The translations under genes were made by a program, and so were the position numbers. DNA of 64,000 nucleotides from an uncultured virus (IMG/VR IMGVR_UViG_3300037264_003342) (lineage: Duplodnaviria > Heunggongvirae > Uroviricota > Caudoviricetes). Where the stretch lies: the IMG/VR virus record IMGVR_UViG_3300037264_003342. One strand, written 5' to 3'. This document shows, piece by piece, positions 1-19,955 of this stretch (positions within the stretch are counted from its first letter, which is position 1; the number at the start of each line of letters is the position of its first letter). The notes beneath the pieces were generated by a model. It made no database searches. It was not told the DNA's origin and saw nothing but the letters and a program-made list of their open reading frames with translations.

Positions 1-236
1 TCTTTGAAGGCTTTCTCTTTCAGCTTATTCGCCTCGGAAGCTCCGAGACGCACGAGTTCCTTCTTGCTCGTGGGCAGGCCCGTCTCTTTGCGGATGGTTT
101 CGCGAAGCTGCGCCTTGCCTGCCTCTACTCCGGCCTTGACGCGCTCCTGCACCATCCCCTTGCCGTACTGGACTCCAGTACGGAGGAGGTCCGAGGGGGA
201 AGCCTCGAACCCGCACGGGCAGGCTTCGAGAGCCAT
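1..236 (-). CDS. Hypothetical protein, truncated at the window edge (MALEACPCGFEASPSDLLRTG...)
   Basis: ATG at 236 immediately follows the stop at 238-240; the frame is open to position 1. Translated by hand, not in the ORF track. Confidence 0.7.
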   Translation of the reverse strand, partial: MALEACPCGFEASPSDLLRTGVQYGKGMVQERVKAGVEAGKAQLRETIRKETGLPTSKKELVRLGASEANKLKEKAFK

Positions 237-237
237 T

Positions 238-1569
238 TCAGCCCTGGCGGATCGCAGTCGGAAGAGCGATGCCGGCTCGGCGAGCCGCGAGCTGCGCAGG
301 AGATCCACCGCGCAGGATGTTCTGCCGAAGTGAGCGCATCCCGACGAGCTTGCGGCCGATCACCTCGGCCTTGGCGCGGTTGCCCGAACGGAGCGCCAGG
401 ATGCCGGCCTTCTTCATCGCTTGGAGCTTCGCTTGCGCACAGAGCTTGCAGAACGTCGCTGCCTGGTTGCCGTAGAGCTTCGTCTTGAACGCCTTGTCGG
501 AGACGGCGTCCGAAGGGTCCGTCTGACCGAGCCCGGCCAAGCCGGCGTTCGAGGGCGTGAGCGGCAGAGCCGGATCCCACGACGATCCCCCCGAGTAGTC
601 CGCGCCCGCACTCGGGCTGATGACCCCGCGCTGCGAGTAGTAGCCGGGGATCTTGTCGTAGTAGCTCACGAGGTCTGCGTTGGCCAAACCGAGCCCAGCG
701 AGGCCGGCGTTCGAGGGCGTGAGCGGAATGGCAGAATCCCACGACGAGCCGCCCCCGTAGTTCGCGCCCGCGCTCGGGCTGATGACTTGGCCGGCGTCGT
801 AGTAGTTCCTGAGATCGGCGTCGGCCAGAGCGAGGCCCGCGTTCGAGGGCGTGAGCGGCAGCGCGGGATCCCACGAGGAGCCGCCCCCGTAGTTTGCACC
901 CGCGCTCGGGCTGATGACCTGCCCCGCGTTGTAGTAGCCGGGGATGCCGGCAAGAGCTTCACCACGATCGGCTTTCATCTTGATCTCCTCCAGAACCTCC
1001 AAGAGAACCTTGGGTTTCGTGATGAAAACCATCTTCCCACGCGCGAAGGGAACGAACGTGCGGTTCGTCTCCATCAACGCTTCGGGCATGGACGTCGGTT
1101 TGCCGTACCGCTTCATCGCCCAGGTCGCAACAGCTCTTGCACTGCCCGCTCCCCAAACTCCGTCGGGGGTGAGCTGCACGCCCGCAGCTCGCAAGAGACG
1201 TTGGAGTTGAAGCGTTTCGGCCGGCGCTCCGATCTTCCCCAGCACATCGAGATCTGCCTGAGCAAGGCCTGCGTTCGACGGCGTGAGTGGCAGAGCCGGA
1301 TCCCACGACGAGCCGCCCGAGTAGTCCGCGCCCGCGCTCGGGCTGATGACTTGGCCGGCGTCGTAGTAGCTCACGAGGTCTGCGCTGGCCAAGCCGAGCC
1401 CAGCGAGGCCGGCGTTCGAGGGCGTGAGCGGAATGGCAGAATCCCACGAGGAGCCGCCCCCGTAGTTCCCGCCTGCACTCGGGCTGATGACCTGACCGGC
1501 GTCGTAGTAGCCGGGGACGTCCGCAAGGCCGTCGAGCACCGCAATTTCTTCGCCGAGTCCTCTACTCAT
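238..1569 (-). CDS. Repeat-containing putative virion protein (5 x 35-aa repeat plus a PG-binding-like segment)
   Basis: Start reassigned to MSRGLGEE (ATG at 1569 overlapping the upstream TGA, with a GAGGAG RBS). Contains YYDAGQVISPSAG..SSWD..PLTPSNAGL repeats and LQRLL..PDGVWGAGSARAV. Confidence 0.8.
   Translation of the reverse strand: MSRGLGEEIAVLDGLADVPGYYDAGQVISPSAGGNYGGGSSWDSAIPLTPSNAGLAGLGLASADLVSYYDAGQVISPSAGADYSGGSSWDPALPLTPSNAGLAQADLDVLGKIGAPAETLQLQRLLRAAGVQLTPDGVWGAGSARAVATWAMKRYGKPTSMPEALMETNRTFVPFARGKMVFITKPKVLLEVLEEIKMKADRGEALAGIPGYYNAGQVISPSAGANYGGGSSWDPALPLTPSNAGLALADADLRNYYDAGQVISPSAGANYGGGSSWDSAIPLTPSNAGLAGLGLANADLVSYYDKIPGYYSQRGVISPSAGADYSGGSSWDPALPLTPSNAGLAGLGQTDPSDAVSDKAFKTKLYGNQAATFCKLCAQAKLQAMKKAGILALRSGNRAKAEVIGRKLVGMRSLRQNILRGGSPAQLAARRAGIALPTAIRQG
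538..1509 (-). repeat. Five copies of a 105-bp (35-aa) coding repeat: 1405-1509, 1264-1368, 832-936, 700-804, 538-642
   Basis: Near-identical units (ctcgggctgatgac ... gagggcgtgagcgg ... tcccacga) visible in both DNA and protein. Confidence 0.95.
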
Positions 1570-4500
1570 AGGTTCTCCTCCGAAAGCCTCGGCCTCGGGC
1601 TCGTACCCTTGCGGCTCAAGAATAGCGCCACAGCCCCTACAACCACAACCCCCACGACGAGGAGTCCCCATCCCCCAGGAGCTACCGGGGAGATCTGCCC
1701 CGCCTCCTCGACCGTGAGCTTCCCGTCGGCCACGAGATTGTCGATGTTCTTCTTGATGTCCCTGTACGCCACGGTGTCTGCGTTGAGGGCCTCGCCCACG
1801 CCTTTGACGCCGATGTACGTCACGACGGCTGCCTTCAAGGTCGGGTTCGACAGAAGCTCGATGAGCTTGGGCCACGCCGCCGCCCCGAGGCGAGCCGCAA
1901 CGCTCGCAGCCTGCGCCCACTGTTCGAGGCCCTGCATCGGGGCCGCCGTGAGCGGAGTCTTCAGCACTTCCAAGATCTCGGTTGATGTGCTCGCCAGCTC
2001 CGCGAGCCATGCTTCGAGCGACGACACCGCGCCCGAAGTCGGCTTTCCGAGAGCGTCGATGGCCGAGATGGCCTGCGGACTCTTTTCAAGCACTTCGGCC
2101 GTCCGCTGCTTCACGCGCTCTGCCGCCCCAACCCACGAGTCAAGGAGCTGCACCACCTCGGGCAGAAGATGCCAACCCTTGGCTTCGCGCTCCTCGACCG
2201 CTTTCACGTAGCGGTTGCCGTCCTGGTAGACCGAAGCGAGCGCAGCAATCATCTCGTCCCAGAGCTTCTCGGGAGAGAGCACGACCGGCGGCGGCGTCGG
2301 CTCTCCGTTCGTCGGCAACTCCCCGTTCGTGATCTTTCCGTTCGTCGGCGGAGGTCTTTCGCCGTTCGTGACAACCTTCCCGTTCGTAATGACCTTTCCA
2401 TTCGTCGGAGGCGGCTTCTCTCCGTTCGTCGGCGTCGGGCCTCCGCGCGCTTTCCACGCCGCCTCACCTTGCGCAACGAGCGCCGCATCGGTTGACGGCA
2501 GACGGAGAGAGCGCATGTCTGCGCTCACGAGCTTCTGGAGTGCGATGCGCCAGACTCTCTGCACGGCCGGCGTTGCGCTCGACTTGAAAGCGAACATGAA
2601 CGCTTCCTGGGTTGACGGATCCCAGGAGCCGCTGAGCATGACCGGCGGAATGCCCGCATTCCCGATGCGAGCCATCGTGAGCATCCGCTGAAGAGAAAGC
2701 ACCGCGACCGTCTCGGTTGAAGCCTGGACGACAGCCTCGACCGCCTGGCGCTCCTTGTCGTCCTTCGGCGTCGGGGCCGGAGTGAGCTTCGCGGCCTCGC
2801 GAAGAGCCCCGACGATGGCCTTCGGGAGCTGAACCATGCTCGTCCCTTTGGACTTCGAGACGACGACGATCTTGACCGTCTTGCCACCCGGCTGCTTGTT
2901 GAGCCACCCACGCAATGCCGTCTCGGTGTTCGATCCCCAGGTGCCGTCGGCCTTGAGGCGGCTCTTGGCGAGGATGTTCAGGCCCTGCTGGACGGTCAGA
3001 ACCAAGATCTGCTCGACCTCGGCCGTGGGCGTCACCGGACCCGGCTTCCCGGCCTCGGCCTTGAGCTTGTCGTAGGTCGCTCTCACGACGGTCGCTGACT
3101 TGTCGTTCACCTTGGCCGTGATGCCGGGATTGAGCCCGCGAGCGCTCGCGATGCGTTCCCAGGCCTTCTGCGTTGCCGATCCGAAACGCCCATCCGTCAG
3201 CGCTTTCGTCTTCGGTTCACCGAGGCGCAGAACGATGCCCTGCATCTCTGCGACAGGCACGACCACAGAACCCTCGGGCACTCCCGGCTTCGGCTTCTTG
3301 GCTGCCTCCGCCTCGGCGTCCTTCGTGAGACGCACGATCGTATCCGACACTGCCGAAATCAGCATCTCGTCGTACTTCGAGATCTTCGGATCCAAACCTC
3401 GAGTTTTGGATGACACTTGCCAAGCGTTGGCGAGCGCGGGCGTGAACTTGTCCGACTTCGGAAGCTTCTTCGTCGTCCAGCCGAGCTTGTAGAGAATGTC
3501 GTAGGCCGTGACGGTGGGAAGGGTGATGATGACCCTCGACTCGACCTTGGGCTCTTCCTTCTTCGGCTCTTCCTTCTGCGGTTCGACCTTCGGCTCTTTC
3601 GCCCTCATCGTCTCTTCGAGGAGCGCGACGTAGCTCCGAGCGTTCAAGCGAGCGGTCTTGCCATCGACGCGCTCGAACAACTGGTCGAGGCCACGCTTCT
3701 TCGTAGACGACTCCCACGCGCCTTTGGTCTTCGGGCCGTAGAGGCCGAAATCCTTCGCGCCTGGACGCGGGATGGTGGTCGACTTCCACCCGAGCTTGAT
3801 CAACACCTTCTGCACGTCCTCGACTGACTTGTTGATCACGTCGGATGCTGGAGCGGGCGTCGGAGTAGGCGTCGGTGTCGGAGCGGGCGTCGGAGCGGCT
3901 CCAGCGTCTGCTGCGATCTTGTTGTACGTCGCCTCGTTCACCCGTGCGTGAGTGCCATCCACGCGCTCGAAGAGCTGCGGAAGGTTTCGGAGCTTGGCCG
4001 AGACGCCCCATGCGCCCTTCGTCTGCGGGCCGTACTTCCCGTCGCGCGTGAGCTTCTTTGCAGTCCAGCCGACTCCGTAGAGAAGTCCCTGCAGCTCGTC
4101 CACGGTCTTCACGACCGTGCCGGCCACCACCTTCTCGGTCGGTGGAGTGCCTGGCGTGACCACTTTCGCTCGCGCTTCCTTCTCCATCACGGCGAGCGTG
4201 TTCGAGTCGACAAGCACGACGCTCGGCTGCGTCGAGGGTTGAAGCACCGTCGCAAGCTGACGCGACTTGGCCGAGATGGCCCACGACTGGGCGAGGTTCT
4301 TCGTGTAGGTCTTCGCCTTCGTGAGCTTCTTCGTCGTCCAGCCGAGGGCGTAGAGGATGTCGAAGGCGTTCGAGACTGACGTGCCGGCGAGAGTCGACGC
4401 TGGAGGCGGAAGCGGCGCGGGGCCCGCAGGAGCGGCCACAGGAGCGGCCGGCGCGAGCACCACGGCGACGCCTCCCGAGAGCACCGAGAGCGTCTGGGGA

Positions 4501-4775
4501 TCGACGTAGGCCTCGGTCGAGCTTGCCCGCTGGAAGGTTGGGTTGAGCTGTCGGGTCGTCGCCGACTGGCCCCAGGCTCCGGCCGTCTTCGGGCCGAAGA
4601 GGCCGAAATCCTTCGCCCCCGGTCGCGGAACGGTCGTCTCGCGCCAGCCAAGCTTGATCAGGATGCGCTGCAGCTCCCCGACCGAGCGCTTCACGAGGCC
4701 GCTCTGGATGGGCTGCTCGAAGGCCTCGAAGTCGGCCTGCGCAAACTCGGACAGGTATTCCGAGAGAGGATCCAT
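1566..4775 (-). CDS. 1069-aa membrane-anchored protein with about 8 peptidoglycan-binding-like repeats
   Basis: Recurrent V.(E/D)LQ..L..LGW....(D)G.(F/Y/W)G..T..AW units, Pro/Thr linkers, and a C-terminal hydrophobic helix followed by a basic tail. Confidence 0.75.
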   Translation of the reverse strand: MDPLSEYLSEFAQADFEAFEQPIQSGLVKRSVGELQRILIKLGWRETTVPRPGAKDFGLFGPKTAGAWGQSATTRQLNPTFQRASSTEAYVDPQTLSVLSGGVAVVLAPAAPVAAPAGPAPLPPPASTLAGTSVSNAFDILYALGWTTKKLTKAKTYTKNLAQSWAISAKSRQLATVLQPSTQPSVVLVDSNTLAVMEKEARAKVVTPGTPPTEKVVAGTVVKTVDELQGLLYGVGWTAKKLTRDGKYGPQTKGAWGVSAKLRNLPQLFERVDGTHARVNEATYNKIAADAGAAPTPAPTPTPTPTPAPASDVINKSVEDVQKVLIKLGWKSTTIPRPGAKDFGLYGPKTKGAWESSTKKRGLDQLFERVDGKTARLNARSYVALLEETMRAKEPKVEPQKEEPKKEEPKVESRVIITLPTVTAYDILYKLGWTTKKLPKSDKFTPALANAWQVSSKTRGLDPKISKYDEMLISAVSDTIVRLTKDAEAEAAKKPKPGVPEGSVVVPVAEMQGIVLRLGEPKTKALTDGRFGSATQKAWERIASARGLNPGITAKVNDKSATVVRATYDKLKAEAGKPGPVTPTAEVEQILVLTVQQGLNILAKSRLKADGTWGSNTETALRGWLNKQPGGKTVKIVVVSKSKGTSMVQLPKAIVGALREAAKLTPAPTPKDDKERQAVEAVVQASTETVAVLSLQRMLTMARIGNAGIPPVMLSGSWDPSTQEAFMFAFKSSATPAVQRVWRIALQKLVSADMRSLRLPSTDAALVAQGEAAWKARGGPTPTNGEKPPPTNGKVITNGKVVTNGERPPPTNGKITNGELPTNGEPTPPPVVLSPEKLWDEMIAALASVYQDGNRYVKAVEEREAKGWHLLPEVVQLLDSWVGAAERVKQRTAEVLEKSPQAISAIDALGKPTSGAVSSLEAWLAELASTSTEILEVLKTPLTAAPMQGLEQWAQAASVAARLGAAAWPKLIELLSNPTLKAAVVTYIGVKGVGEALNADTVAYRDIKKNIDNLVADGKLTVEEAGQISPVAPGGWGLLVVGVVVVGAVALFLSRKGTSPRPRLSEENL
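2301..2433 (-). repeat. Seven TNG-centred short repeats (ccgttcgt) in a Pro-rich linker
   Basis: TNGEKPPPTNGKVITNGKVVTNGERPPPTNGKITNGELPTNGE. Confidence 0.85.
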
Positions 4776-5185
4776 CAGAACACCACCGAGGAGATGACTA
4801 CCGGCACAGGAGCGGCAAGCGGCCCTCCAGCGGCGTCGCTCACGGCCTGGGCGTAGAGGTCGTCATCGGGTAGGAGTACGCCCTGGTAGCGCTGGGTCGA
4901 CGAGAGAAGGATCTGAAAGGCGCTCTCGCCCGCGTTCTCGCTCGACGAGAACGAGATGAACGCTCCTGCCCCTGGCAGAGCCAGGATGCTCGACGTCGGG
5001 AGCCACACCTCGAAGTAGTTCACCTCAACCCCCTTGGGTTGGGTGAGCATCTGAATCGTCTGCTGGAGCGGGATGCGCTTGACCGTGCGTCGGCCGTGCG
5101 CGATGCGACGAGGCCCTACGAGCGCTGCAAGGAGCGCGCGGAGGCTGAGATTGCCGGTGCCGGGATCTTCGTTGAACTCGAACAC
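4775..5185 (-). CDS. Small beta-rich putative structural protein
   Basis: Coupled to both neighbours, downstream of the putative capsid genes, with alternating hydrophobic pattern. Confidence 0.55.
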   Translation of the reverse strand: MFEFNEDPGTGNLSLRALLAALVGPRRIAHGRRTVKRIPLQQTIQMLTQPKGVEVNYFEVWLPTSSILALPGAGAFISFSSSENAGESAFQILLSSTQRYQGVLLPDDDLYAQAVSDAAGGPLAAPVPVVISSVVF

Positions 5186-5189
5186 ATTT

Positions 5190-5798
5190 TCATCGCAATG
5201 GCGTGCAGGCGACGTAGTCCCCGAGGAGCTGGACTCCGAACTCCTTCGACGTGCCGACGAGAGCAGGCCAACGCGTGGTGTCGACCGACCACACGACCGA
5301 GAGGTCGGTGCCAGGGACCGTGATGTAGACCCCGTCCCAGGTCGCGATGTCGGACTTGCCGGCCCCGTCGAGGATCGACTGCAGGTTCACCGGCCGCTTG
5401 AAGATCTCGAAGTTCCGGCCCTCTTCCCGCACCTGGACGCCGACGAGGTAGGCGGCGGCTCCGACGAGGTCGGGATCCATCGCGAAGCCGACGATGCGCC
5501 GGAGCGCGAAGTTGTAGCGCGAGATGAGCGATACCTTGTCCGACTCGAAGACGATCTGGCCCGCCGGATCGATCTGGACCCGGAACTGCAGATCTTCGAT
5601 CCGCATGTCCTCGGGAGCGATGGCTCCGCTCGCGAGGTCCGAGTAGTACTGGACGAGCGCCCCCGGAGGAACCGGCATGGCACCGGGAGGCTCCGGCATG
5701 TCTGCCTGCGGCACCCTTGGCGGATACCCCATCTGCGGCGCACCAGCCGGCGCGATGCCCGGCGTTCTCTGGTAGCGCGACAAATTCGGCGATGCCAT
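5190..5798 (-). CDS. Putative second single jelly-roll capsid protein
   Basis: 202 aa with a Pro-rich N-arm then beta-strand pattern (YNFALRRIVG..VGVQVRE..VYITVPGTDLSVVW..VQLLG); GGAGG RBS. Fold is inferred. Confidence 0.5.
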   Translation of the reverse strand: MASPNLSRYQRTPGIAPAGAPQMGYPPRVPQADMPEPPGAMPVPPGALVQYYSDLASGAIAPEDMRIEDLQFRVQIDPAGQIVFESDKVSLISRYNFALRRIVGFAMDPDLVGAAAYLVGVQVREEGRNFEIFKRPVNLQSILDGAGKSDIATWDGVYITVPGTDLSVVWSVDTTRWPALVGTSKEFGVQLLGDYVACTPLR

Positions 5799-5817
5799 GG
5801 ATCCTCCAGACTCGGAA

Positions 5818-5867
5818 CGCCGCCCCGACGAGGGCTAGGGGGGACTTAACCCAGCGTCGGGGAGGCG
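5818..5867 (-). terminator. Intergenic stem-loop between the two putative capsid genes
   Basis: ccccgacg (5823-5830) pairs with cgtcgggg (5855-5862). No U-tract, so more likely a stabiliser or attenuator than an intrinsic terminator. Confidence 0.45.
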
Positions 5868-5875
5868 GAAGCCGA

Positions 5876-6523
5876 CTACTTCGTGACGGCCGCCCGGATG
5901 AGGCCGTGCAGCAGGTTCATCACCGGCAACGGCTGTTCGAGCACCGGGTTGGTGTACGGAACCGGCGGCTGCAACTGCGAGAGCCAGTTCCTCGGATCGA
6001 AGCGCAGGAGGCCTTCGAGTTCGTGGTTCTGGTTCAGCATCTGTCGCTTGATGAGCTTCGCGGCCGATGCCGTCGCAGGCACGCCGATCGAGATGATGCC
6101 CGCGTCGGTTTCGGTCGTCTGGCCGTAGAAGCCGTACCCGCTCGGATAGGCGATGGCTGGCCCTTCCGTCTGCAAGAGGTCGTTGATCTTCATGCGGTAG
6201 TAGGCGTTGTCGAGCGCCTTCTTCACGTCGCGCGGCACCTCGACGACGTTGCCGAGGACCGATCGCGGGTAGAGGCCGATCCGATCGAGGATCATGCTCT
6301 CGCCCGACGACAGCTTGCGCGGCGTCTTGATGTTGGTGTCGACCTCGCGCTTCGCCTGGATGTCGGCGAAGAAGATGAACTGCGAGCCGGGGACGATCTC
6401 GCCTTCGGGGATGATGATCGTGTCCCACTTGTCGCCTTCGCGGAAGTCGCGCACGTTCAGAATTTGGCCCGTCTCGGGATCCTTGAAGAGTCCCGGTTGA
6501 CCGTCGATCGGATTCATCGCCAT
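5876..6523 (-). CDS. Putative major capsid protein (single jelly-roll-like)
   Basis: 215 aa, strong AGGAGG RBS, strongly GC3-biased codons, FIFF..K...DTN....L..G...ILDRIG motif and C-terminal LHG strand. Lies between a membrane protein and other beta-rich genes. Confidence 0.6.
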   Translation of the reverse strand: MAMNPIDGQPGLFKDPETGQILNVRDFREGDKWDTIIIPEGEIVPGSQFIFFADIQAKREVDTNIKTPRKLSSGESMILDRIGLYPRSVLGNVVEVPRDVKKALDNAYYRMKINDLLQTEGPAIAYPSGYGFYGQTTETDAGIISIGVPATASAAKLIKRQMLNQNHELEGLLRFDPRNWLSQLQPPVPYTNPVLEQPLPVMNLLHGLIRAAVTK

Positions 6524-6575
6524 GGCTGTCGTCCTCCTGCTTTCCTAGCAATCTTGAAGTTGAAGTCCTGCGCCC

Positions 6576-7196
6576 CTACGACATGTAGGGGTTGTACCCG
6601 CCGAGCGTCTCACCCGCGACGACTGCCGCGTCGAGACTCATCAGTTGCTCCGGGTTCACGACGGTGCCTTCGAGGCTACCGAACGCTCCGCGCGAGGCGT
6701 AGACGTTGGTCGTCTCCAACGCTGCGAGTGCCGAGCCGCCGTCCGAGCCGTAGGCTGCGAGCAGCGCCTGGTCGTGCGCGGAGAGGGTGTCCTCTTCGGG
6801 CGTCTCGGCGAACGACCCGAGCGGGTACATCTTCGCCGTGCCGTGGCCGAGCAGGTTCTGGTCCTTGAAGAAGGAGTCGGCGAGCTGCGCGAGGCCGAGC
6901 CCCGAGACGCCTCCCACGACGGCCATCGCGGCGTCGCGGTTGTAGTCCCAGAGGAGCCGGCCGCCGAGCATCCCACCGAGGACGCCGAGGAGAGCGCTCA
7001 CGCGGTGGCGCATGGGCTCGTCGAGCTTTTCGAGCATCTTGCTCTTCGAGAACATCGGGAGCACCCAGCTCGCGAGCAAGATCGCCGCGCCGCTCGAACC
7101 CGCCGCAATCAGTTGATCCTGAAACATCTTCGGCGAGTAGTACGCTTCCATGCCCTCGTCGTACATGTCGAGTCCCATCAGATCGTCGTACGCCAT
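6576..7196 (-). CDS. Putative virion membrane protein
   Basis: Three Gly/Ala-rich hydrophobic segments, GGAGG RBS, directly upstream of the putative capsid gene. Confidence 0.65.
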   Translation of the reverse strand: MAYDDLMGLDMYDEGMEAYYSPKMFQDQLIAAGSSGAAILLASWVLPMFSKSKMLEKLDEPMRHRVSALLGVLGGMLGGRLLWDYNRDAAMAVVGGVSGLGLAQLADSFFKDQNLLGHGTAKMYPLGSFAETPEEDTLSAHDQALLAAYGSDGGSALAALETTNVYASRGAFGSLEGTVVNPEQLMSLDAAVVAGETLGGYNPYMS

Positions 7197-7272: not shown

Positions 7273-7959
7273 TCAAACGGAGAAAACGCGCGAGTCGGCG
7301 ATCATGCTAACTGGAGGTTCCCAACCGAACGGCATCGGAACACTCGCGTCGAACGAGATCCACTTTCGCGGGCTCCGACGTGGAAGACCAATCTGCGCGT
7401 AGATGTGGTTCCAGCTCGGAGCGCCCTTCGTTTTGATGACCTTGAAGCGACACGGAAGACCAAGCGAGCCGGCGAGAGCACACGCGAGCGTGCTGTAGTC
7501 GTCGCAGTCGGCCGTGTGCAGAGCTAGCGTATGTCCAGGCTTTTGGTAGCTGTCGATGCCGGCGATGTCGCTCGTGTAGCGGACGTTCTGCCGGACGGCC
7601 TGGAAGAGAGCCTTGGCCTCGGCCAAGTTGTCTTTTTCCGGCACGCACCACATGTCGCCGCACTTCGCGTTCACAGCTCGACGAGCAAACTCGTAGACGG
7701 CCGGGTCTTTTTTTCCGGCATGCGCGAGCTTTCGGAGGTGGGCAATCCGCTCGTCGAGGTTCCTGATGTTGTAGGTCCGAAGGCGAATTGGGCCCGACGG
7801 GGTCTGCACGAAAACGTCGTTGGAGCGTCGAGAAGCAGGGGCCCAGGGCCTCGGGGGGTTCTTCGAGGGGATTGTCTTGAGCTGCCGAATTCCCCCTGAG
7901 ATCTGCCTGACTCCGAGCGCAATGCCGGCGAGCCCGAGAGCAATCTTGAGCGCCGACAT
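7273..7959 (-). CDS. Transglutaminase-like cysteine enzyme with N-terminal hydrophobic anchor
   Basis: ADCDDYS, WNHIY and WISFDAS give a Cys-His-Asp triad; VRYTSD motif. Confidence 0.85.
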   Translation of the reverse strand: MSALKIALGLAGIALGVRQISGGIRQLKTIPSKNPPRPWAPASRRSNDVFVQTPSGPIRLRTYNIRNLDERIAHLRKLAHAGKKDPAVYEFARRAVNAKCGDMWCVPEKDNLAEAKALFQAVRQNVRYTSDIAGIDSYQKPGHTLALHTADCDDYSTLACALAGSLGLPCRFKVIKTKGAPSWNHIYAQIGLPRRSPRKWISFDASVPMPFGWEPPVSMIADSRVFSV

Positions 7960-13017: not shown

Positions 13018-13043
13018 CCGGTTAGACGCACGAGACGCGCGGT

Positions 13044-13985: not shown

Positions 13986-14491
13986 CAGAGCCTCTGGGCC
14001 ACGAAGCTCAGGAGCCGCTCGCCGAGCTTGGGGTCGACCTTGCGCGTCAGGGCCTCCATGCAGGCTCGCACCTCGGAGCGCACTGGGCCCTTGACGACGC
14101 TCGGCCAGATCGCCGGCCAGACGAGCCGGACCTTGAAACCTCGGTCGGAGTCCGAGACGCGGACGACTGCAGGGTCAGAGCGCGAGAGCTTCGGGGCGAT
14201 CGGGCACGCTGTCGGAAGTTGGTTGGCGATCTTGATTGCACTCTTCCGAACATCACTCGTGATGTCGCCGGCAAAGAGCTTCTCGAAACCGCTCGCTCGC
14301 ACTTCGAGCAGCACTTCGAGCGGGCCCGCGTACTGCTGTTGCTGCGGCTCGACTGGAGGAGTCAGCCGTTTGATGTCGGTAGGAGTGAACGGCTCGTCCG
14401 GTACTTCCTCTTTGCGACGAAGCAAGAGAGCTACGAGGCCCGTCAGCACAGCTCCTCCGATGGCCCAAGGGAGCCAACGTGGCTCGGCCAT
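13985..14491 (-). CDS. Hypothetical protein with N-terminal TM helix
   Basis: WLPWAIGGAVLTGLVALLLRRK. Confidence 0.7.
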   Translation of the reverse strand: MAEPRWLPWAIGGAVLTGLVALLLRRKEEVPDEPFTPTDIKRLTPPVEPQQQQYAGPLEVLLEVRASGFEKLFAGDITSDVRKSAIKIANQLPTACPIAPKLSRSDPAVVRVSDSDRGFKVRLVWPAIWPSVVKGPVRSEVRACMEALTRKVDPKLGERLLSFVAQRL

Positions 14492-15021
14492 CAGCGCCCC
14501 CGCTTGGCCATTCGCTCCGCGTCTGCAACAGAGCGGATGTGCGGATTGTTTGCTCCGTACTTGGCCATGATCTCAGCTCCGCGACGCGTGCGGAACGGAC
14601 CAATGGCGGCCCCGTACTTCTTTCCGTGGCTGCTATCGGTCGGCGTCTTCTTGCTCCTGAACACTTCGCGGCCTTTGCCGCTGATGCCGACGTACAGGCC
14701 GGCGAGACTCGGGAGTGTCGACGTGTCGCCCTGGAGCTTGCAGCGGATCTCTCGACCCTGCTTGTGACACACCGCGCTCGCGGGTGAGAGCACGAAGCCC
14801 ATGCGCGCCGGACCCGACACCGTCATCCCGCGAAAGCTCACGCTGCTCGCCTTGACGGTCCTCGAAGGGTAGTTCCCCGTCACGCCACCTGGCTTCTCGT
14901 AAGTGTGCTGACCTCGCTCCATCTGGCCGTCGCGCACGCAGCGGTAGCGGATCTCAGCTCGACCTTTGCCGTCGAGTTCGATGGAGTGAACGATGCAGTG
15001 CTTGGGAACGAGACGAGCCAT
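14491..15021 (-). CDS. Hypothetical basic protein
   Basis: Coupled ORF rich in K/R. Confidence 0.65.
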   Translation of the reverse strand: MARLVPKHCIVHSIELDGKGRAEIRYRCVRDGQMERGQHTYEKPGGVTGNYPSRTVKASSVSFRGMTVSGPARMGFVLSPASAVCHKQGREIRCKLQGDTSTLPSLAGLYVGISGKGREVFRSKKTPTDSSHGKKYGAAIGPFRTRRGAEIMAKYGANNPHIRSVADAERMAKRGR

Positions 15022-15365
15022 CAGCTTCTCCCACGCCTACGCAACCGCCACTCATTGTAGCTCTTCGGGATCTCGTCGACCTCACCTTGGGCGTCGTCCT
15101 CTGCGTAGGCCGACTCGATCCTGTTACTCGTGTGGTCGTCGTAGAGTTCGGGGTCTTCCCAGTTGACGTCAGAGCCGACGACGCGCCAGCCGCTGTTGTC
15201 TTTGTCCACGATGGCCTGGACGATCTGGTCGCGCTCGTTCCAGGCCGTGGCGAAGGACAGAGCACCACCGTCCGAGGTGAGGAAGAAGATCGGATACCCG
15301 CCTGGCCAGGCGTACGGACCTTCCTTCAAGGCGTTGCCGAAATCCTTGGGAGTCTTGATCTGCAT
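15021..15365 (-). CDS. Conserved phage hypothetical protein
   Basis: YAWPGGYP.FF.T.DGG.L...W.VVG.DVNWED..LY.D....IESAY pattern. Confidence 0.7.
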   Translation of the reverse strand: MQIKTPKDFGNALKEGPYAWPGGYPIFFLTSDGGALSFATAWNERDQIVQAIVDKDNSGWRVVGSDVNWEDPELYDDHTSNRIESAYAEDDAQGEVDEIPKSYNEWRLRRRGRS

Positions 15366-15370
15366 GGTGT

Positions 15371-15940
15371 TCACCACCTCTTCGGCAAGAGGGAACAACT
15401 CCCGAGCTTACAGATGTCCTTCCGCGTTGCAATGACCGCTCGGCCGCCGTCGCGGAGTTTGTCGTGTAGCTCCTGCACCACTTGCTTCGCTTCGCTCTCG
15501 GGGATCACGTTCAAGGTGAAGATCGAGAAGACCTCCGAGAACTGTCCCGTCGGCGCTCGGCGGTCTTCGGACCTCGGGCTGTACTTGTCGTAGCCGACAG
15601 CTTCGCATCCGCCGCGACCCATCGCGACGAGGCCTTTCTGGTCTTTGCCGATGCCGTGGTAGAGCCGGCGACACGCGGCCGGCGCTCCTCGGATCTCAGA
15701 GCGGAGCGGCACGGCGGGCTTCTTGCGCGCGATGGCCGTCTTGAACGGACTCGCAGGCCCGACCGAGTACTGGCCCCAGGCTACTTGACGGTTCCAGTCC
15801 TTGAGGAGATCTCTCAACTCACTCTTCGTGAAGACCCAAGTCGCTGAGACGCCGTTCGAGCGGACAGGCTTCTTCTTGAAGGTGACGCAAGCTTGGTTGT
15901 TGCGGCTCTGGCGCGGAGCAGTCGCGCAACGAATTCTCAC
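15371..15940 (-). CDS. Class I SAM-dependent methyltransferase-like protein (atypical motif I)
   Basis: LYHGIGKD, VGYDKY, FSEVFSIFTLNVI, L+DGG.AVIATR. Confidence 0.55.
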   Translation of the reverse strand: MRIRCATAPRQSRNNQACVTFKKKPVRSNGVSATWVFTKSELRDLLKDWNRQVAWGQYSVGPASPFKTAIARKKPAVPLRSEIRGAPAACRRLYHGIGKDQKGLVAMGRGGCEAVGYDKYSPRSEDRRAPTGQFSEVFSIFTLNVIPESEAKQVVQELHDKLRDGGRAVIATRKDICKLGSCSLLPKRW

Positions 15941-16341
15941 GACGGAAGCTCCGAGGCCCAGCTATCTTCGCCGCCCCAGTAGGCGATCTCAGCGACACCG
16001 ATGCTCGCGGCCCAACGAGCGAGTTCCTTCGGCGTCTTCGGCCGCTTCTTTCCGTGCTTCTTCAAGAGAGCGATGATGTCCTCGGTGTCGAACGTGACCT
16101 TCTGTAGGCCGTACGGTTCCGACGGGTCGTCTGGCTCGGAGCCGGCGGCGTAGAAGTTCGTGTACTCCGTCACGATGATCTCGCCGGGCTCGATCTCGAC
16201 CATCGTTGCGTAGTCGCCTTCTTGGCCCCCAGGCCCGTACCAGATGGCTTCGGCGGCTCTCGCATTGGGGTAGCCGCGCCACACGTCGGGAACACGGAAC
16301 GGCTCTTCGCGCCACTGCTCGACGGTCTGCGACCGGATCAT
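15937..16341 (-). CDS. Hypothetical protein
   Basis: Coupled ORF. Confidence 0.6.
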   Translation of the reverse strand: MIRSQTVEQWREEPFRVPDVWRGYPNARAAEAIWYGPGGQEGDYATMVEIEPGEIIVTEYTNFYAAGSEPDDPSEPYGLQKVTFDTEDIIALLKKHGKKRPKTPKELARWAASIGVAEIAYWGGEDSWASELPS

Positions 16342-16746
16342 CGTCCCCGCCGCCGTCGCTTCGCTCTCTCGTAGTCACTGCAGAGGAGATGCCTGGCTCG
16401 CACCTTCCTCTGCGGAGTGAGCTTTGTGCCCTTCGGGTAGCGGATCGAGTTGATCACGCGCCCGCGCGAATTCCAAAGAAGCGCGAGAGGGTAAGTCTCC
16501 TCTATGAAAGTCACACGGCACTTGGCCATCAGCGCACCCTCTCTCAGCACTCGCTCAAGTGCTCGCCAAGCTCCGTGAGATTGAGGTATTCGTGACGGGG
16601 CTCTTCGCTACTGAAGAACACGAAACCCGCTCGTAGGAGGTAGCGAACTATTTCCTCTGGGTGGTTCCCGACCCAGTGGCCGCCATCCTGCTCGCCGATA
16701 CTCCGAAGACGCCGAACCAGCTCTTTCACCGGGGGATGGCGAGGCA

Positions 16747-16992
16747 TCAATCCCTCTTGAAAACGTGAACGTGGTCGCCGCTCGGCAACGTGCCGTGCGC
16801 GAGGCCGTCCTGCGCGCGGCGCTCCCAGCCGAACTTTCGGATCAACGCCAGGGCTGCGACTTTGTGGTTGTCGTCGATGTCGAGGGCGTGGTCGTAGGGT
16901 ACGAAGATCTTCCCCGCCGCTGCCTCCGCCGAGATGCGCGAGCCGCGAACATTCCCTGGGCCGTGGTACTTGGTGAGTATCGCTTGTGCCAT
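16747..16992 (-). CDS. Conserved phage hypothetical protein
   Basis: AILTKYHGP.N.RGSRI.A...YDH.L...NH..AA.AL..K.GW pattern. Confidence 0.65.
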   Translation of the reverse strand: MAQAILTKYHGPGNVRGSRISAEAAAGKIFVPYDHALDIDDNHKVAALALIRKFGWERRAQDGLAHGTLPSGDHVHVFKRD

Positions 16993-17003
16993 TTCACGCT
17001 CCC

Positions 17004-17180
17004 TCAACGACGCTTAGCACAGCCGACCTGCTTCCACGTTCGGCCAACTTTGCGATGGACACACGCCTTCATGTTTCCCATCGTCACGGCCCAACGAGCC
17101 TGTGCTGCTGCCTCCCGACGCGTCGCGAAGGTGTTGCTCTTCCGAGTGCTGGAATAGGTGACCTTCCACTTGCCGGCCAT
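17004..17180 (-). CDS. 58-aa basic protein (MAGKWKVTYSSTRK...)
   Basis: Hand-translated; ATG overlaps the upstream TGA and the ORF fills the gap. Confidence 0.55.
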   Translation of the reverse strand: MAGKWKVTYSSTRKSNTFATRREAAAQARWAVTMGNMKACVHRKVGRTWKQVGCAKRR

Positions 17181-17935
17181 CACGCCCCCTGGCCCAAGTA
17201 CGACCGGCCCTCGCTCTCAGCGACCAGCTCTTGGAAGTACTCCGGGCTCACCGGGTTGACGAGCACAGTGCCCGTCGTTCCCTTGTCGTAACGTCGAGTG
17301 AGACTCCCTGGGTCGACGTAGACGACCGGCACAGCCGTTGTCGAAGGGCAGTCGCGGTTGAAGCCGCCGTCACAGATGAACGTGCGCTTGCCTGTGCCCT
17401 CGGCGAGCCGCTGGGCCGTGTTGACGGCTTCGAGGTAGCGCTGCGGGTAGACCTCGGGCTTGTAGGTCCGAGGGAAGGGGTTGTGGCTCACGACGTAGTT
17501 CGGTCGGCCGACGAGCTGCGGCACGCCTCGGTTGTTGAACACGAGCCGCTGGCCGCCGGGTCGGAACTCGGCGATCGGATGGGCGTCGGGGTACCCAGGC
17601 AGGTAGCCGAAGCCGCGCCGGACGTGGGAGGGGAAGCGGGCTGGGTTTCGGGTCGTCGGGCCGCAGGCCTTGCACGGAATCCCGCCCCGAGCGCCAGAGC
17701 CCTCTCGACCCCAGCGGACGACCCGGAACGGCGTGCCCCGGAGCGTGCAGAGAGTTCCGCATTCGCGGAGCGCCTTCCCGAGCGACGAGTAGTGGTTGAG
17801 CCACTTCGGAGCCGGATAGGTCGGCATCACGATCTGATACGGCCCTTCGTCGGCCTTGCCGTAATCGTCGATCGAGAAGGCCGCCTTCTCGGACATCGCC
17901 TGCTCGCTGAAAGGGTCGTTCGAGGCGGAGAGCAT
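17180..17935 (-). CDS. Hypothetical protein
   Basis: 251-aa coupled ORF. Confidence 0.65.
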   Translation of the reverse strand: MLSASNDPFSEQAMSEKAAFSIDDYGKADEGPYQIVMPTYPAPKWLNHYSSLGKALRECGTLCTLRGTPFRVVRWGREGSGARGGIPCKACGPTTRNPARFPSHVRRGFGYLPGYPDAHPIAEFRPGGQRLVFNNRGVPQLVGRPNYVVSHNPFPRTYKPEVYPQRYLEAVNTAQRLAEGTGKRTFICDGGFNRDCPSTTAVPVVYVDPGSLTRRYDKGTTGTVLVNPVSPEYFQELVAESEGRSYLGQGA

Positions 17936-18234
17936 CAGGCCTCCGCCGCGAGAGCGTCGTCCATGAATTCCTTGGCGAACTTCAGGGCTCGCGCCGGCAG
18001 GGTGTCCAGTTTGACAGACTTACCCAGAGCACGGAACCGCTCTCTCTTGTGACTCAAAAACTGCGACATCGTGATGTTTCCGTGCTGACCGAACCCTTGA
18101 GGGCTGTACGGATTTTCGTCGAAGCCGACGTACGCCACGCTGCCATCGTAATCTACTGGCCGAGTATCGAAAAGGGTGTAGCGGTCAGCCGTCCTCCCCC
18201 CGTTGTCGAGGAGCACGAAGCGCCTGGTCCTCAC
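17935..18234 (-). CDS. Hypothetical protein
   Basis: GTG start overlapping the upstream stop; DNGGRTADRYT...PQGFGQHG. Confidence 0.6.
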   Translation of the reverse strand: MRTRRFVLLDNGGRTADRYTLFDTRPVDYDGSVAYVGFDENPYSPQGFGQHGNITMSQFLSHKRERFRALGKSVKLDTLPARALKFAKEFMDDALAAEA

Positions 18235-18611
18235 AGGATGGCCTTCCCGTTGCCCTCGGCCGCCTTCTCGATGCCGTAGCACTGCTTCACGACGTTGGCG
18301 ACCTTGCGCCTCGTCATCAAGCCCTTGAAGAACATGAAGATGCGCGTGGGCGGCACCTGGCACTTGGCGTGCAAGTAGACCGGCGGTGCCTCGGGGTAGA
18401 GCACGACCGGGACCATGTCGAGCTTCCTGTCGCCCATGGCGAAGAGCCCGCCGCACTGCTGACAGACGCGACGGCCCTTGTGGATGGCCACGATGCCGAG
18501 CCGGCCGTCCTTGCCGGTGATGAGGTCGACGCCGTCGAAGACGGCCGCGTCGGCCGCGACCTTCAGCTCGTCTTCGGTTTCGCGGCGAAAGAGGAGTTCT
18601 AGACCAGACAC
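18231..18611 (-). CDS. Hypothetical protein with CxxC...HxxC
   Basis: CQQCG and LHAKC. Confidence 0.6.
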   Translation of the reverse strand: MSGLELLFRRETEDELKVAADAAVFDGVDLITGKDGRLGIVAIHKGRRVCQQCGGLFAMGDRKLDMVPVVLYPEAPPVYLHAKCQVPPTRIFMFFKGLMTRRKVANVVKQCYGIEKAAEGNGKAIL

Positions 18612-18645
18612 GGGGGCCTCTGTTTCACATGAAACGGTTTGTCGG

Positions 18646-19500
18646 TCAGTTCCTCACGAAGTAGCCGTGGACGCTCATGGGAGCGCCGGGAGCCGCAACG
18701 TCATTGCGCACGCGCAGGTGGTGGAGAGTTGGGCTGCCTCCGCCGCCGAAGGGGCACTGGTGGATGAAGTAGGGGCTCGGGGGAAAGAGGCCGCCGAAGG
18801 GTGGCAGGATCACACGGTTACCCACCGTCGTTGCGTCGGTGTAATCGCGTGCAGTACGAGGGCGAAAAAAAGCTGGTGGTGCGAGCGCCACGTCGTTCAC
18901 ATCCTCGAAGATGAGCGACAAAGTGACGTCCCCGTCCACGTCGCCACCCAGGTACATCCCTGCGAGTGAGATCTCGTCGATCCTGTTCTTCTCGAATACG
19001 TGAACGATCTCGCTCGCCCCCGCCGCGATGGTGAAGGGCACGCCGGCATTGAAACCGGTCAACGTCTTGCCGATCGGACGACGCTCGGCTTGCTTTTTCG
19101 TGCCCTGCCCAACTCGGAGATAGTACCCCCAGAGAAACGTCAAATCTGTAGCGACGATTGCTGGTGTTCCTAAAGCAGAGAAATGTAGAGCGACTGCACC
19201 TCGAACTGGGTGCCCGTCGAGCGCTTTCGCTACCGGCTCTCTGTTGACGTCGGGTGAGAGCCTGCCGACCCACACAAGACCCCCTGCTCCTACTGGATCG
19301 GAAGCGGACACGCCGTAGGCCGTCACTGGAAGTGCTGGATTCAATCTTCGTGGAGACACGAAGAGGTGAACCTCGTAGATCGCTGGAGCTTTGGATGTGC
19401 TATCGGGGGGAGTGAAGACCGGCAAAAGGACAGGGTTTGGTGTCGCGGCATCGACACCCGCAATCAGTCCTCCGAACAGTGGGATCTTCTGGCTGCCCAT
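18646..19500 (-). CDS. Beta-rich hypothetical protein, possibly a vertex or spike component
   Basis: 284 aa with two halves each ending in (W/H)GY(Y/F)(L/V)R; GGAGG RBS. Confidence 0.55.
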   Translation of the reverse strand: MGSQKIPLFGGLIAGVDAATPNPVLLPVFTPPDSTSKAPAIYEVHLFVSPRRLNPALPVTAYGVSASDPVGAGGLVWVGRLSPDVNREPVAKALDGHPVRGAVALHFSALGTPAIVATDLTFLWGYYLRVGQGTKKQAERRPIGKTLTGFNAGVPFTIAAGASEIVHVFEKNRIDEISLAGMYLGGDVDGDVTLSLIFEDVNDVALAPPAFFRPRTARDYTDATTVGNRVILPPFGGLFPPSPYFIHQCPFGGGGSPTLHHLRVRNDVAAPGAPMSVHGYFVRN

Positions 19501-19541
19501 AGCGAGTCTTCCTCCGAAGCTACCTTAGCCCGTCCAAGAAC

Positions 19542-19955
19542 TCAAGGAATGCGGCCGACGCTCCGAGCGCGCACCTCGAACCGCTCGAAGACGCTAGCCT
19601 CGGGATCTTCGTCGTACAGCTCGGTCCCGTAGTCGCCCGCCCACGCCCGAGCTGCCGCTCGGGAGTGCGTCACGACGTCGATCACAGCCAGCTCCCCGCC
19701 CCTCGTGGCCGAGGACCGAACGGCCGCCTCGCAGGCCGTCTCCCAGTCGTTCGTCGTGAACGTCGCCTCGCCGGCCGACACCTCGAAATCGAGGTGCTCG
19801 TGCTTCGCGGGCTTGGGCCTCTTCGCCACGGATCGCGAGCCTACCACCGGCCCTCCCCGCAGAGCTACTGCTTCCGATCGAGCGTCGGCAATTTTTCCGG
19901 CCTTAGAGCCTTGTCCACGCATGTCCCAAAGCTGAATTTTTTCCGGCGCAGCCAC
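19542..19955 (-). CDS. Hypothetical protein
   Basis: First gene of the leftward block. Confidence 0.55.
   Translation of the reverse strand: MAAPEKIQLWDMRGQGSKAGKIADARSEAVALRGGPVVGSRSVAKRPKPAKHEHLDFEVSAGEATFTTNDWETACEAAVRSSATRGGELAVIDVVTHSRAAARAWAGDYGTELYDEDPEASVFERFEVRARSVGRIP

What the first reader, a model, noticed from the sequence alone, without database searches (positions are those of the whole stretch)
1..19955. Large tailless, membrane-containing virus architecture: tandem single-jelly-roll-like genes joined to a tailed-phage-style replisome
Seen: the gene order is transglutaminase, membrane protein, then 215-aa, 202-aa and 136-aa beta-rich proteins, with many TM-anchored proteins and no terminase, portal or tail gene in 64 kb. 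Known: Halopanivirales use two adjacent single jelly-roll capsid proteins and an internal membrane, and the characterised members have genomes well below 64 kb. Inference: this could be an undescribed large-genome lineage carrying its own PolA, D5 primase-helicase, RecD2 and ThyX.
Basis: partly seen in the sequence, partly recalled or inferred. Interest (0 to 1): 0.8.

Follow-up and report, generated by a model that had tools for sequence, protein, structure and literature searches.

The report
Large tailless jelly-roll bacterial virus
This stretch is probably the particle-building gene block of an uncultured bacterial virus of about 85 kb whose shell seems to be made of two small jelly-roll proteins rather than the usual phage head, portal, packaging motor and tail, which would make it several times larger than any cultured virus of that build.

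Summary
On the minus strand lie, in order, a membrane-anchored transglutaminase-like protein, a 206-aa membrane protein, the 215-, 202- and 136-aa genes, a 1069-aa peptidoglycan-binding protein with a C-terminal anchor, and a 443-aa repeat protein. No terminase, portal, HK97 capsid or tail family was found in 99 window ORFs. None was found either in three relatives with terminal overlaps (102, 89 and 86 kb), or in a collinear 74-kb relative that reaches about 19.5 kb beyond the window start.

The two genes are adjacent in 26 of 26 testable relatives. The 215-aa protein is the best conserved core gene (50-66% identity, against 29-39% for PolA). No conserved packaging ATPase was found.

My best reading, at about 0.6, is an undescribed lineage of large tailless bacterial viruses with a jelly-roll capsid and probably an internal membrane. 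It is not a member of Halopanivirales or Portogloboviridae. No virion has been seen, and the membrane and the packaging mode are inferred.

The parts
7273..7959 (-). 228-aa transglutaminase-like (papain-fold) protein with a hydrophobic N-terminus. Candidate membrane-anchored virion peptidase.
   Evidence: Pfam Transglut_core E 2.1e-12. Homologues at 34-80% identity in G001, G002, G003 and G005. Found upstream of the 215-aa gene in 14 of 18 metagenome loci with room.
6576..7196 (-). 206-aa acidic membrane protein with glycine-rich hydrophobic segments.
   Evidence: Hydrophobic window 29-47. GC3 0.89. Found upstream of the 215-aa gene in 16 of 24 loci with room.
5876..6523 (-). 215-aa jelly-roll protein, capsid protein candidate 1 and the hallmark gene of the lineage.
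5190..5798 (-). 202-aa jelly-roll protein with a disordered proline-rich N-terminus of about 45 residues. Capsid protein candidate 2.
4775..5185 (-). 136-aa conserved protein with a hydrophobic C-terminus. Fold untested. Candidate minor or vertex protein.
   Evidence: Homologues in G001, G002 and G003 and in 14 of 22 loci with room. No link to the other two families or to PDB sequences.
1566..4775 (-). 1069-aa protein with repeated peptidoglycan-binding domains, proline-rich linkers and a C-terminal membrane anchor.
   Evidence: Pfam PG_binding_1 E 2.8e-12. PHROG endolysin families match the PG-binding parts only. Hydrophobic helix 1035-1053, score 2.55. Homologues of 664-1203 aa in relatives.
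238..1569 (-). 443-aa protein X, with five repeats of about 45 aa and a basic C-terminus. Its start overlaps the stop of the 1069-aa gene.
   Evidence: Reading of the frame, start codon and repeats. The C-terminal part is conserved in G001, G002, G003 and G005. No family match.
1..308 (-). First 102 codons of the next gene of the block, cut off by the window start.
   Evidence: Open frame starting at 308. In relatives this position holds variable large proteins (G003 861 aa, G002 720 aa, 33-35% identical to each other).
17180..19500 (-). Conserved trio of unknown proteins (284, 126 and 251 aa) that lies back to back with the integrase in relatives.
   Evidence: tblastn hits in L022, L047, L024, L034, G003 and others. 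No family or PDB match.
20147..23067 (+). Tyrosine recombinase (303 aa) followed by a 670-aa acidic, low-complexity protein. In most relatives the pair sits directly upstream of the transglutaminase gene and on the same strand.
   Evidence: Phage_integrase E 9.7e-20. The pair is conserved in all five genomes. The 670-aa family lies upstream of the 215-aa gene in 8 of 13 loci with room, and the integrase in 6 of 10. The 670-aa family has no fold or family match.
34892..57208 (.). Replication module: D5 primase-helicase (34892-37357, minus), PD-(D/E)XK exonuclease (37543-38745), SF2 helicase (39722-41788), ThyX (41782-42744), PolA (43887-46712), RecD2 (54683-57208, minus).
   Evidence: Pfam and PHROG matches. 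The best PolA match among 50,697 phage records is 28% identical.

Best explanation
The window is about three quarters of the genome of an uncultured bacterial dsDNA virus. It belongs to a widespread, unnamed lineage with genomes of roughly 74-102 kb that probably circularise.

The lineage does not use the tailed-phage particle. It lacks the HK97 capsid protein, portal, terminase and tail. The minus-strand block 1-7959 is its virion module.

Shown:
- Two adjacent, strongly conserved small proteins (215 aa and 202 aa) are predicted to be single jelly rolls.
- Their nearest solved look-alikes are the two capsid proteins of Sulfolobus polyhedral virus 1.
- They are flanked by a membrane-anchored transglutaminase-like protein, a small membrane protein, a tail-anchored giant with peptidoglycan-binding repeats, and variable large proteins or fibres.

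Inferred:
- The two jelly-roll proteins form the icosahedral shell as hexameric and pentameric, or mixed, capsomers over a lipid vesicle that carries the anchored proteins.
- The peptidoglycan-binding giant and the transglutaminase-fold peptidase act on the cell wall at entry or exit.
- The variable downstream proteins are vertex spikes.
- The genome is replicated by the virus's own PolA, D5 primase-helicase and helicases.
- The conserved tyrosine recombinase keeps the genome as monomeric circles or integrates it.
- The DNA is enclosed without a dedicated packaging ATPase, perhaps by co-assembly or condensation as in SPV1.
For: Absence of tailed-phage hallmarks:
- No terminase, portal, HK97 capsid or tail family in 99 window ORFs.
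- None in 125 (PHROGs) and 112 (Pfam) ORFs of G001, 101,942 bp with a 123-bp terminal overlap.
- None in 95 ORFs of G002, 88,820 bp with a 78-bp overlap. Pfam covered only about 15 selected G002 ORFs.
- None in 29 ORFs of the last 22 kb of G003 plus 101 ORFs of G005, 86,128 bp with a 55-bp overlap. Pfam covered 63 of these.
- None in 11 ORFs that span fetch boundaries.
- Six-frame searches of G001 and G002 found Terminase_6N, TerL_ATPase, Phage_capsid, Phage_portal and FtsK_SpoIIIE in 0 of 2 each, while the named control genomes rang.

Core genes:
- The core shared by the five genomes has no unannotated protein of 400 aa or more except the low-complexity 670-aa family. That leaves no room for a conserved terminase plus portal.
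- Among called genes, Walker A motifs occur in the window only in RecD2 and the D5 helicase. No ATPase candidate is shared between genomes.

Folds:
- HHIV-2, HCIV-1, SH1, P23-77 VP16/VP17, PRD1 P3, STIV and PBCV-1 capsid proteins appear lower in the lists.
- Two unrelated sequence families (hhalign probability 0.3%) each pick a different chain of the same virus entry as best match.

Conservation and synteny:
- The 202-aa gene follows the 215-aa gene in 26 of 26 loci with room.
- The 215-aa family is the best conserved core gene: 50-66% identity, against 29-39% for PolA.
- GC3 is 0.86-0.89 in these genes, against a typical 0.75-0.80.

Virus-like context:
- Phage-type replication genes.
- M15 peptidases and an amidase-type endolysin in relatives.
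- Acb2/Tad1 anti-defence gene and fibre proteins with phage fibre and decoration domains in G001.

A known precedent: SPV1 has two jelly-roll capsid proteins, an internal membrane, a circular genome and a nucleoprotein core. No packaging ATPase is among its nine ORFs with an assigned function (ICTV profile PMC8459092, whole text read).
Against: - No particle, proteome or expression data exist. Only one DNA run, a sediment metagenome that is probably the source, holds the stretch.
- Foldseek TM-scores are low, at 0.30-0.43.
- There is no sequence-level link to any capsid family.
- The hallmark-gene absence rests on sequence profiles and on my own ORF calls. Only two proteins were folded. G002 keeps several large unknown ORFs (1005, 720, 680 and 515 aa).
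- The remaining 20.7 kb of the window's own contig was not seen.
- Enclosing 85-100 kb without a motor has no precedent in bacteria.
- A subset of distant proteins carries the N-terminal motif of the 215-aa family behind an RRxFL-plus-hydrophobic N-terminus that looks like an export signal or anchor. This could point to a non-capsid use of that motif.
Confidence: 0.6

Rival explanations
1. It is a tailed phage after all. Its HK97 capsid protein, portal, terminase and tail proteins have diverged beyond profile detection or lie in unread DNA. The jelly-roll proteins would then be decoration or cement proteins, or receptor-binding proteins.
For: Jelly-roll cement, turret and tail-fibre domains of tailed phages appear in the fold lists: KHP30/40 cement, HFTV1 turret, phage 7-7-1 fibres, KP1 baseplate. 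G001 has fibre proteins that match PHROG 'tail fiber' and 'head decoration' families. The Atlas's own taxon labels for look-alike clusters say Uroviricota. 20.7 kb of the window's contig is unseen, and only two proteins were folded.
Against: Three genomes with terminal overlaps and one collinear relative show none of these genes by PHROGs or Pfam. Six-frame searches of five families covered G001 and G002. The five-genome core has no unannotated protein of 400 aa or more other than the low-complexity 670-aa family, whereas terminase and portal are normally among the best conserved phage genes. The 215-aa gene has no match in 50,697 phage records.
Confidence: 0.12
2. It is not a virus but a large plasmid-like or integrative element. 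It would have a phage-type replisome, and its jelly-roll, membrane and peptidoglycan-binding proteins would form a cell-surface or secreted structure.
For: Tyrosine recombinases are conserved, with two in G001. G001 has a RelE-like toxin and G005 a ParB-like protein. Terminal overlaps of 55, 78 and 123 bp fit circular molecules. No packaging ATPase was found. Some distant proteins place the N-terminal motif of the 215-aa family behind an export-signal-like N-terminus.
Against: No conjugation, relaxase or type IV secretion family was returned by any Pfam or PHROG scan. Endolysin-type enzymes, an Acb2/Tad1 anti-defence gene and phage fibre domains occur in relatives. The best conserved genes are two jelly rolls whose top solved match is a virus capsid. 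IMG/VR lists G001 and G002 as viral records.
Confidence: 0.12
3. It is a tailless virus, but the shell or envelope is built by another, still unrecognised protein. That could be a double jelly-roll or a wholly new coat, or a pleomorphic envelope. The 215-aa and 202-aa proteins would be vertex, spike or sub-capsomer parts.
For: Several conserved proteins remain unfolded: the 136-aa, 284-aa, 251-aa, 126-aa, 443-aa and 670-aa families. Jelly rolls also form pentons and spikes in PRD1-type viruses (recalled). The Atlas feature search put PRD1 P3 and P2-domain clusters nearest among named ones, at a weak 0.76-0.77.
Against: The 215-aa and 202-aa pair is the most conserved and most constantly linked part of the module. 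It also has the strongest codon bias, as expected of the major shell proteins. No longer, fused form of the 215-aa family was found, though this is weak evidence.
Confidence: 0.14

Closest known systems
Portogloboviridae (Sulfolobus polyhedral virus 1: capsid proteins VP4 and VP10, PDB 6OJ0)
   Same: Two different small single jelly-roll proteins. Each is the best solved structural match of one of the two proteins here. Membrane proteins sit in the structural block. The genome is probably circular. No recognisable packaging ATPase is reported (ICTV profile PMC8459092, whole text read).
   Different: SPV1 infects hyperthermophilic archaea, has a 20-kb genome and encodes no polymerase. This lineage has peptidoglycan-binding and peptidoglycan-cleaving proteins, which points to a bacterial host. 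Its genomes are 74-102 kb and it carries its own PolA, primase-helicase, helicases and ThyX. There is no sequence similarity. The structural scores are modest. Which protein forms pentons and which forms hexons is unknown.
Halopanivirales / Helvetiavirae (Thermus phage P23-77 VP16/VP17; SH1, HHIV-2, HCIV-1 VP4/VP7)
   Different: The packaging ATPase next to the capsid genes (recalled as a hallmark) was not found here (and all family scans). The structural matches are weaker than to SPV1.
Salisaeta icosahedral phage 1 (SSIP-1)
   Same: A tailless, membrane-containing phage that, by recall, has the largest genome of the cultured phages of this build, about 44 kb. Seen here only in a search listing and in an earlier AI note.
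   Different: No homologue of the 215-aa protein exists in the 50,697 phage records searched. Whether those records hold SSIP-1 was not checked. The genomes here are about twice as large.
Tectiviridae and other double jelly-roll phages (PRD1 P3/P31)
   Different: No double jelly-roll protein and no FtsK/HerA-type ATPase was found. The polymerase is family A, not protein-primed family B (the family B point is recalled). The genome is several times larger.

Membership tests
Caudoviricetes (tailed phages) | HK97-fold major capsid protein | tested here: not met
   No capsid family by Pfam or PHROGs in the window, G001, G002, G005 or the G003 end. Six-frame Phage_capsid search: 0 of 2. These are sequence profiles only. 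Unannotated ORFs were not folded, so a very divergent HK97 fold is not strictly excluded.
Caudoviricetes (tailed phages) | Large terminase subunit and portal protein | tested here: not met
   Six-frame Terminase_6N, TerL_ATPase and Phage_portal searches: 0 of 2 each. No such PHROG family except short hits (residues 78-205) inside an 836-aa helicase of G002. The five-genome core has no unannotated protein of 400 aa or more besides the 670-aa low-complexity family.
Halopanivirales (Sphaerolipoviridae, Simuloviridae, Matsushitaviridae) | Two adjacent single jelly-roll major capsid proteins | tested here: inconclusive
Halopanivirales (Sphaerolipoviridae, Simuloviridae, Matsushitaviridae) | A32/FtsK-HerA-type packaging ATPase encoded beside the capsid genes (feature recalled) | tested here: not met
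   No P-loop protein in or near the module. Among called genes, Walker A motifs occur in the window only in RecD2 and the D5 helicase. FtsK_SpoIIIE six-frame search: 0 of 2. No ATPase family in any scan of the module genes.
Halopanivirales (Sphaerolipoviridae, Simuloviridae, Matsushitaviridae) | Internal lipid membrane | not testable with these tools
   Only indirect evidence: three or four membrane-anchored proteins in the module.
Portogloboviridae | VP4- and VP10-type single jelly-roll capsid proteins | tested here: inconclusive
Portogloboviridae | Circular genome of about 20 kb without its own replication genes, in an archaeal (Saccharolobus) host | tested here: not met
   Genomes are 74-102 kb and carry PolA, primase-helicase, helicases and ThyX. 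Peptidoglycan-binding domains and M15 or amidase enzymes point to bacteria.
Bamfordvirae double jelly-roll phages (Tectiviridae, Corticoviridae, Autolykiviridae and kin) | [quoted passage not shown] | tested here: inconclusive
   No P3 or P2 family by Pfam. No longer, fused form of the 215-aa family, though this is weak. Other conserved proteins of 250-440 aa were not folded.

The most novel reading that the evidence does not exclude
These elements are a deep, so far unnamed lineage of bacterial viruses with an SPV1-like architecture. In this reading the shell has a high triangulation number and is built of two single jelly-roll proteins over a membrane. It encloses a circular genome of 85-100 kb together with a full phage-type replisome, and it does so without any packaging motor, by condensation or co-assembly. 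That would link the archaeal Portogloboviridae to bacteria. It would also show that capsids built of single jelly rolls, without a motor, can scale to genomes four to five times larger than known.
Probability: 0.25. Interest if true: 0.9.

Novelty: new variant of a known kind. Interest (0 to 1): 0.8.

Why it matters
All cultured tailless, membrane-containing viruses of bacteria and archaea have small genomes. By recall the range is roughly 10-45 kb. Most rely on a dedicated packaging ATPase, and large prokaryotic dsDNA viruses are assumed to be tailed.

This lineage is widespread in sediments and soils. The 215-aa family spans 240 clusters at 50% identity, and contigs are binned with Gemmatimonadota, Anaerolineae, Acidimicrobiia and Actinomycetota genomes. 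If genomes of 74-102 kb really use a jelly-roll capsid and no motor, three things follow:
- The size limit of that architecture would have to be redrawn.
- It would point to an unrecognised way of enclosing large genomes.
- It would expose a blind spot of virus-detection tools, which file such contigs under tailed phages.

The lineage also offers a testable link between archaeal SPV1-type and bacterial viruses.

Tried and rejected
- The whole genome of the window is not held. The missing 20.7 kb of the 84,714-bp contig was therefore judged only through relatives.
- Complex prediction, meant to test a 215-aa/202-aa heterodimer, was not available. Nothing was folded.
- Near-identical DNA search of window 1-20000 against phage records: no match.
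- tblastn of the 215-aa protein against 50,697 phage records at E<=0.1: no match.
- Profile searches of the PDB sequences: the 215-aa family (A4) gave 0 hits at E<=10, the 202-aa family (A2) gave 0 hits, and the 136-aa family (A6) gave only chance-level hits.
- Pfam on 97 members of the 215-aa family: 11 different families, each hit by one member only.
- hhalign between the three small families: probabilities 0.2-0.3%. They are not detectable paralogues.
- The 670-aa family has no PDB match, and its Atlas model has pTM 0.23. It gave no usable lead.
- The BFVD search with the 215-aa model returned only weak, mostly unnamed hits plus CRESS-virus capsids.
- The Atlas feature search gave PRD1 P3 and P2-domain clusters at 0.76-0.77, below the level the tool treats as more than a lead.
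- The search for longer, fused forms of the 215-aa protein found none. The tool calls this weak evidence.
It was repeated with A1.
- L018's 79-kb metagenome record is not held for whole-record searches.
- No tRNA genes in the window.
- No RNA holder is listed for the stretch. One DNA run, a sediment metagenome, holds it.
- Five full-text literature searches found no description of this lineage. The Sulfurimonas phage paper (passages read) concerns 7-11 kb double jelly-roll phages only. The SPV1 structure paper PMC6842630 is not held.
- Host assignment failed. Five MAG contigs are binned to four different phyla, and those fetched whole look like free virus contigs rather than integrated copies.


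Full report
**What is in the window.** The window has 62% G+C and is 64 kb of an 84,714-bp contig. I called ORFs with a crude script based on codon-position G+C, added ambiguous ORFs by hand, and scanned 99 of them with Pfam and PHROGs.

- 228-aa Transglut_core protein with a hydrophobic N-terminus (7273-7959).
- 206-aa membrane protein (6576-7196).
- 215-aa protein (5876-6523).
- 202-aa protein (5190-5798).
- 136-aa protein (4775-5185).
- 1069-aa protein with PG_binding_1 repeats and a strong C-terminal hydrophobic helix (1566-4775).
- A gene my caller missed, a 443-aa protein with five repeats of about 45 aa (238-1569). Its ATG overlaps the previous stop codon.

The rest of the window carries a phage-type replication set: D5 primase-helicase, PD-(D/E)XK exonuclease, SF2 helicase, ThyX, PolA and RecD2. 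It also carries a tyrosine recombinase, a DNA methylase and three PAPS-reductase-like genes. No terminase, portal, capsid or tail family was returned.

**Is the absence of tailed-phage genes only a window effect?** No whole genome is held, so I used relatives.
- The 215-aa protein has two relatives in IMG/VR at 61% identity, on records of 101,942 bp (G001) and 88,820 bp (G002). IMG/VR classes both as having direct terminal repeats and as 100% complete. I measured exact end overlaps of 123 and 78 bp.
- A scan of species-representative genomes gave five MAG contigs. G003 (73,773 bp) is collinear with the window, with 68% identity in PolA. It extends about 19.5 kb beyond the window start, which is roughly the size of the unseen part of the window's contig. 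G005 (86,128 bp) has a 55-bp end overlap.
- By recall, overlaps of 55 and about 77 bp equal common assembler k-mer sizes. I therefore read these as circular or terminally redundant genomes, not as true terminal repeats.

PHROGs and Pfam scans of G001, G002 and G005, of the G003 end, and of the ORFs that spanned my fetch boundaries returned no terminase, portal, HK97 capsid, tail or FtsK/HerA family. Pfam covered only selected ORFs of G002 and G005. The only 'terminase' rows were short hits to residues 78-205 of an 836-aa helicase. Six-frame searches of G001 and G002, which do not depend on ORF calling, found Terminase_6N, TerL_ATPase, Phage_capsid, Phage_portal and FtsK_SpoIIIE in 0 of 2 each, while the control genomes rang.

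**Core genes.** A tblastn comparison of the five genomes gives this shared core:
- the 215-aa family (50-66% identity)
- the 202-aa family
- the transglutaminase-like protein
- the recombinase
- the 670-aa family
- the exonuclease
- the SF2 helicase
- PolA (29-39%)
- protein X
- the 251-aa family
- a family of 109-125 aa that lies beyond the window start

The only conserved unannotated protein of 400 aa or more is the 670-aa family. It is acidic, low in complexity and without a recognisable fold. A conserved terminase-portal pair therefore has no place in the core. Canonical Walker A motifs occur, among called genes of the window, only in RecD2 and the D5 helicase, and no P-loop candidate is shared between genomes.

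**The two small proteins.** Both families are large and unnamed. The near-length search found 246 and 210 homologues, all 'hypothetical'. A profile search of 1.84 billion representatives found 240 clusters for the 215-aa family. Neither family matches Pfam, PHROGs or any PDB sequence, and the two are not detectably related to each other.

AlphaFold2 with 52-sequence alignments gave all-beta models:
- 215 aa: pLDDT 76.9, pTM 0.72.
- 202 aa: pLDDT 72.4, with a disordered proline-rich N-terminus.

| Model | Search | Best match | Score |
|---|---|---|---|
| 215 aa | Foldseek, PDB | SPV1 6oj0_Z | E 7.5e-4; circovirus, satellite-virus and cucumovirus coats and P23-77 VP17 follow |
| 202 aa | Foldseek, PDB | SPV1 6oj0_A | prob 1.00, E 1.5e-3; HHIV-2 and HCIV-1 chains at prob 0.99 |

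That inference rests on three points of context:
- The 202-aa gene follows the 215-aa gene in 26 of 26 metagenome loci with room.
- The pair is the best conserved part of fast-evolving genomes.
- It has the strongest codon bias in the region.

**The rest of the module.** In most relatives the order is recombinase, 670-aa family, transglutaminase-like protein, membrane protein, 215, 202, 136, peptidoglycan-binding giant, X, and then variable large proteins. In the window and in G003, the recombinase and the 670-aa gene lie about 12 kb away on the other strand. This is a clade-specific rearrangement.

Downstream of X the content varies. G001 has YadA-stalk and phage-fibre-like proteins of 1536 and 372 aa. 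G002 and G003 have related proteins of 720 and 861 aa. That is what one expects of host-recognition parts. It has no profile link to the other families.

**Comparison with known groups.** According to the ICTV profile of Portogloboviridae (whole text read):
- SPV1 has VP4 hexamers and VP10 pentamers, both single jelly rolls, on a T=43 lattice.
- It has sub-capsomer proteins, an internal membrane and a nucleoprotein core.
- It has a circular 20-kb genome and no polymerase.
- No packaging ATPase is among its nine ORFs with an assigned function.

This is the closest working analogue, but not a family for this element. The host here is bacterial, judging from peptidoglycan-binding domains and from M15 and amidase enzymes in relatives. 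The genome is four to five times larger and it has its own replisome.

**Novelty.** Five full-text searches found no description of such a lineage. The 215-aa protein has no match in 50,697 deposited phage records.

Earlier AI notes of this scan describe what look like the same or similar lineages in other genomes, and they also name SPV1 as the closest known. I looked these up after my own models and relatives were in hand. I count them as agreement, not as independent evidence.

**Verdict.** With confidence of about 0.6, this is the virion module of a large tailless bacterial virus with a jelly-roll capsid. The internal membrane, the roles of the flanking proteins and motor-less enclosure of the DNA are inferences. 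The rivals each keep roughly 0.12-0.14: a very divergent tailed phage, a non-viral element, or another protein as the real coat.

Noticed in passing
window 57580-58101 (-): A 173-aa ORF shares only its first 32 or so residues, at about 50% identity, with the N-terminal arm of the 215-aa protein. In the representative library the same motif of about 35 aa occurs in short proteins behind an RRxFL-plus-hydrophobic N-terminus, which looks like a Tat signal or a membrane anchor. It may be a shared docking arm.
   Followed up: partly
window 58936-62540: Three PAPS-reductase-like genes lie side by side (330 aa on the minus strand, 300 and 335 aa on the plus strand), next to a 343-aa unknown. This may be a DNA or nucleotide modification cluster.
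   Followed up: no
window 238-1569 (-): Protein X has five copies of a repeat of about 45 aa (YYDAGQVISPSAG...GGSSWD...LPLTPSNAGLA) and a peptidoglycan-binding-like piece. My GC3-based caller missed it, and long antisense ORFs (421-2211 on the plus strand) overlie it.
   Followed up: partly
window 17180-23067 versus relatives L019, L022, L024, L034, L039, L047, G001, G002: In most relatives the recombinase and the 670-aa gene sit directly upstream of the transglutaminase gene on the same strand. In the window and in G003 they are separated from it by about 12 kb and inverted.
   Followed up: partly
window 21055-23067 (+): The 670-aa conserved protein is acidic, rich in Pro, Gln and Glu, and ends in a (Gly-Glu)n run. 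It has no fold or family match. It may be a scaffold or core protein.
   Followed up: partly
G001 (L005:4495-4734, L006:5848-7611, L004:11853-12104): The 102-kb relative encodes an Acb2/Tad1-hairpin protein (anti-CBASS/Thoeris type), a Ro60/TROVE-vWA protein and a RelE-like toxin.
   Followed up: no
window 50054-50581, 51151-52425, 30349-30648, 31062-31643: Other genes noted: a cysteine-dioxygenase-like protein (PHROG 4786), a GP88-family protein, a DUF3850/ASCH protein, and a GDSL lipase with a C-terminal hydrophobic helix.
   Followed up: no
L050-L054 (MAG contigs): Contigs carrying a 215-aa homologue are binned into MAGs of Gemmatimonadota (two), Anaerolineae, Acidimicrobiia and Actinomycetota. 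The long ones (74-86 kb) look like whole virus genomes rather than integrated copies, so the bin labels do not give the host.
   Followed up: partly
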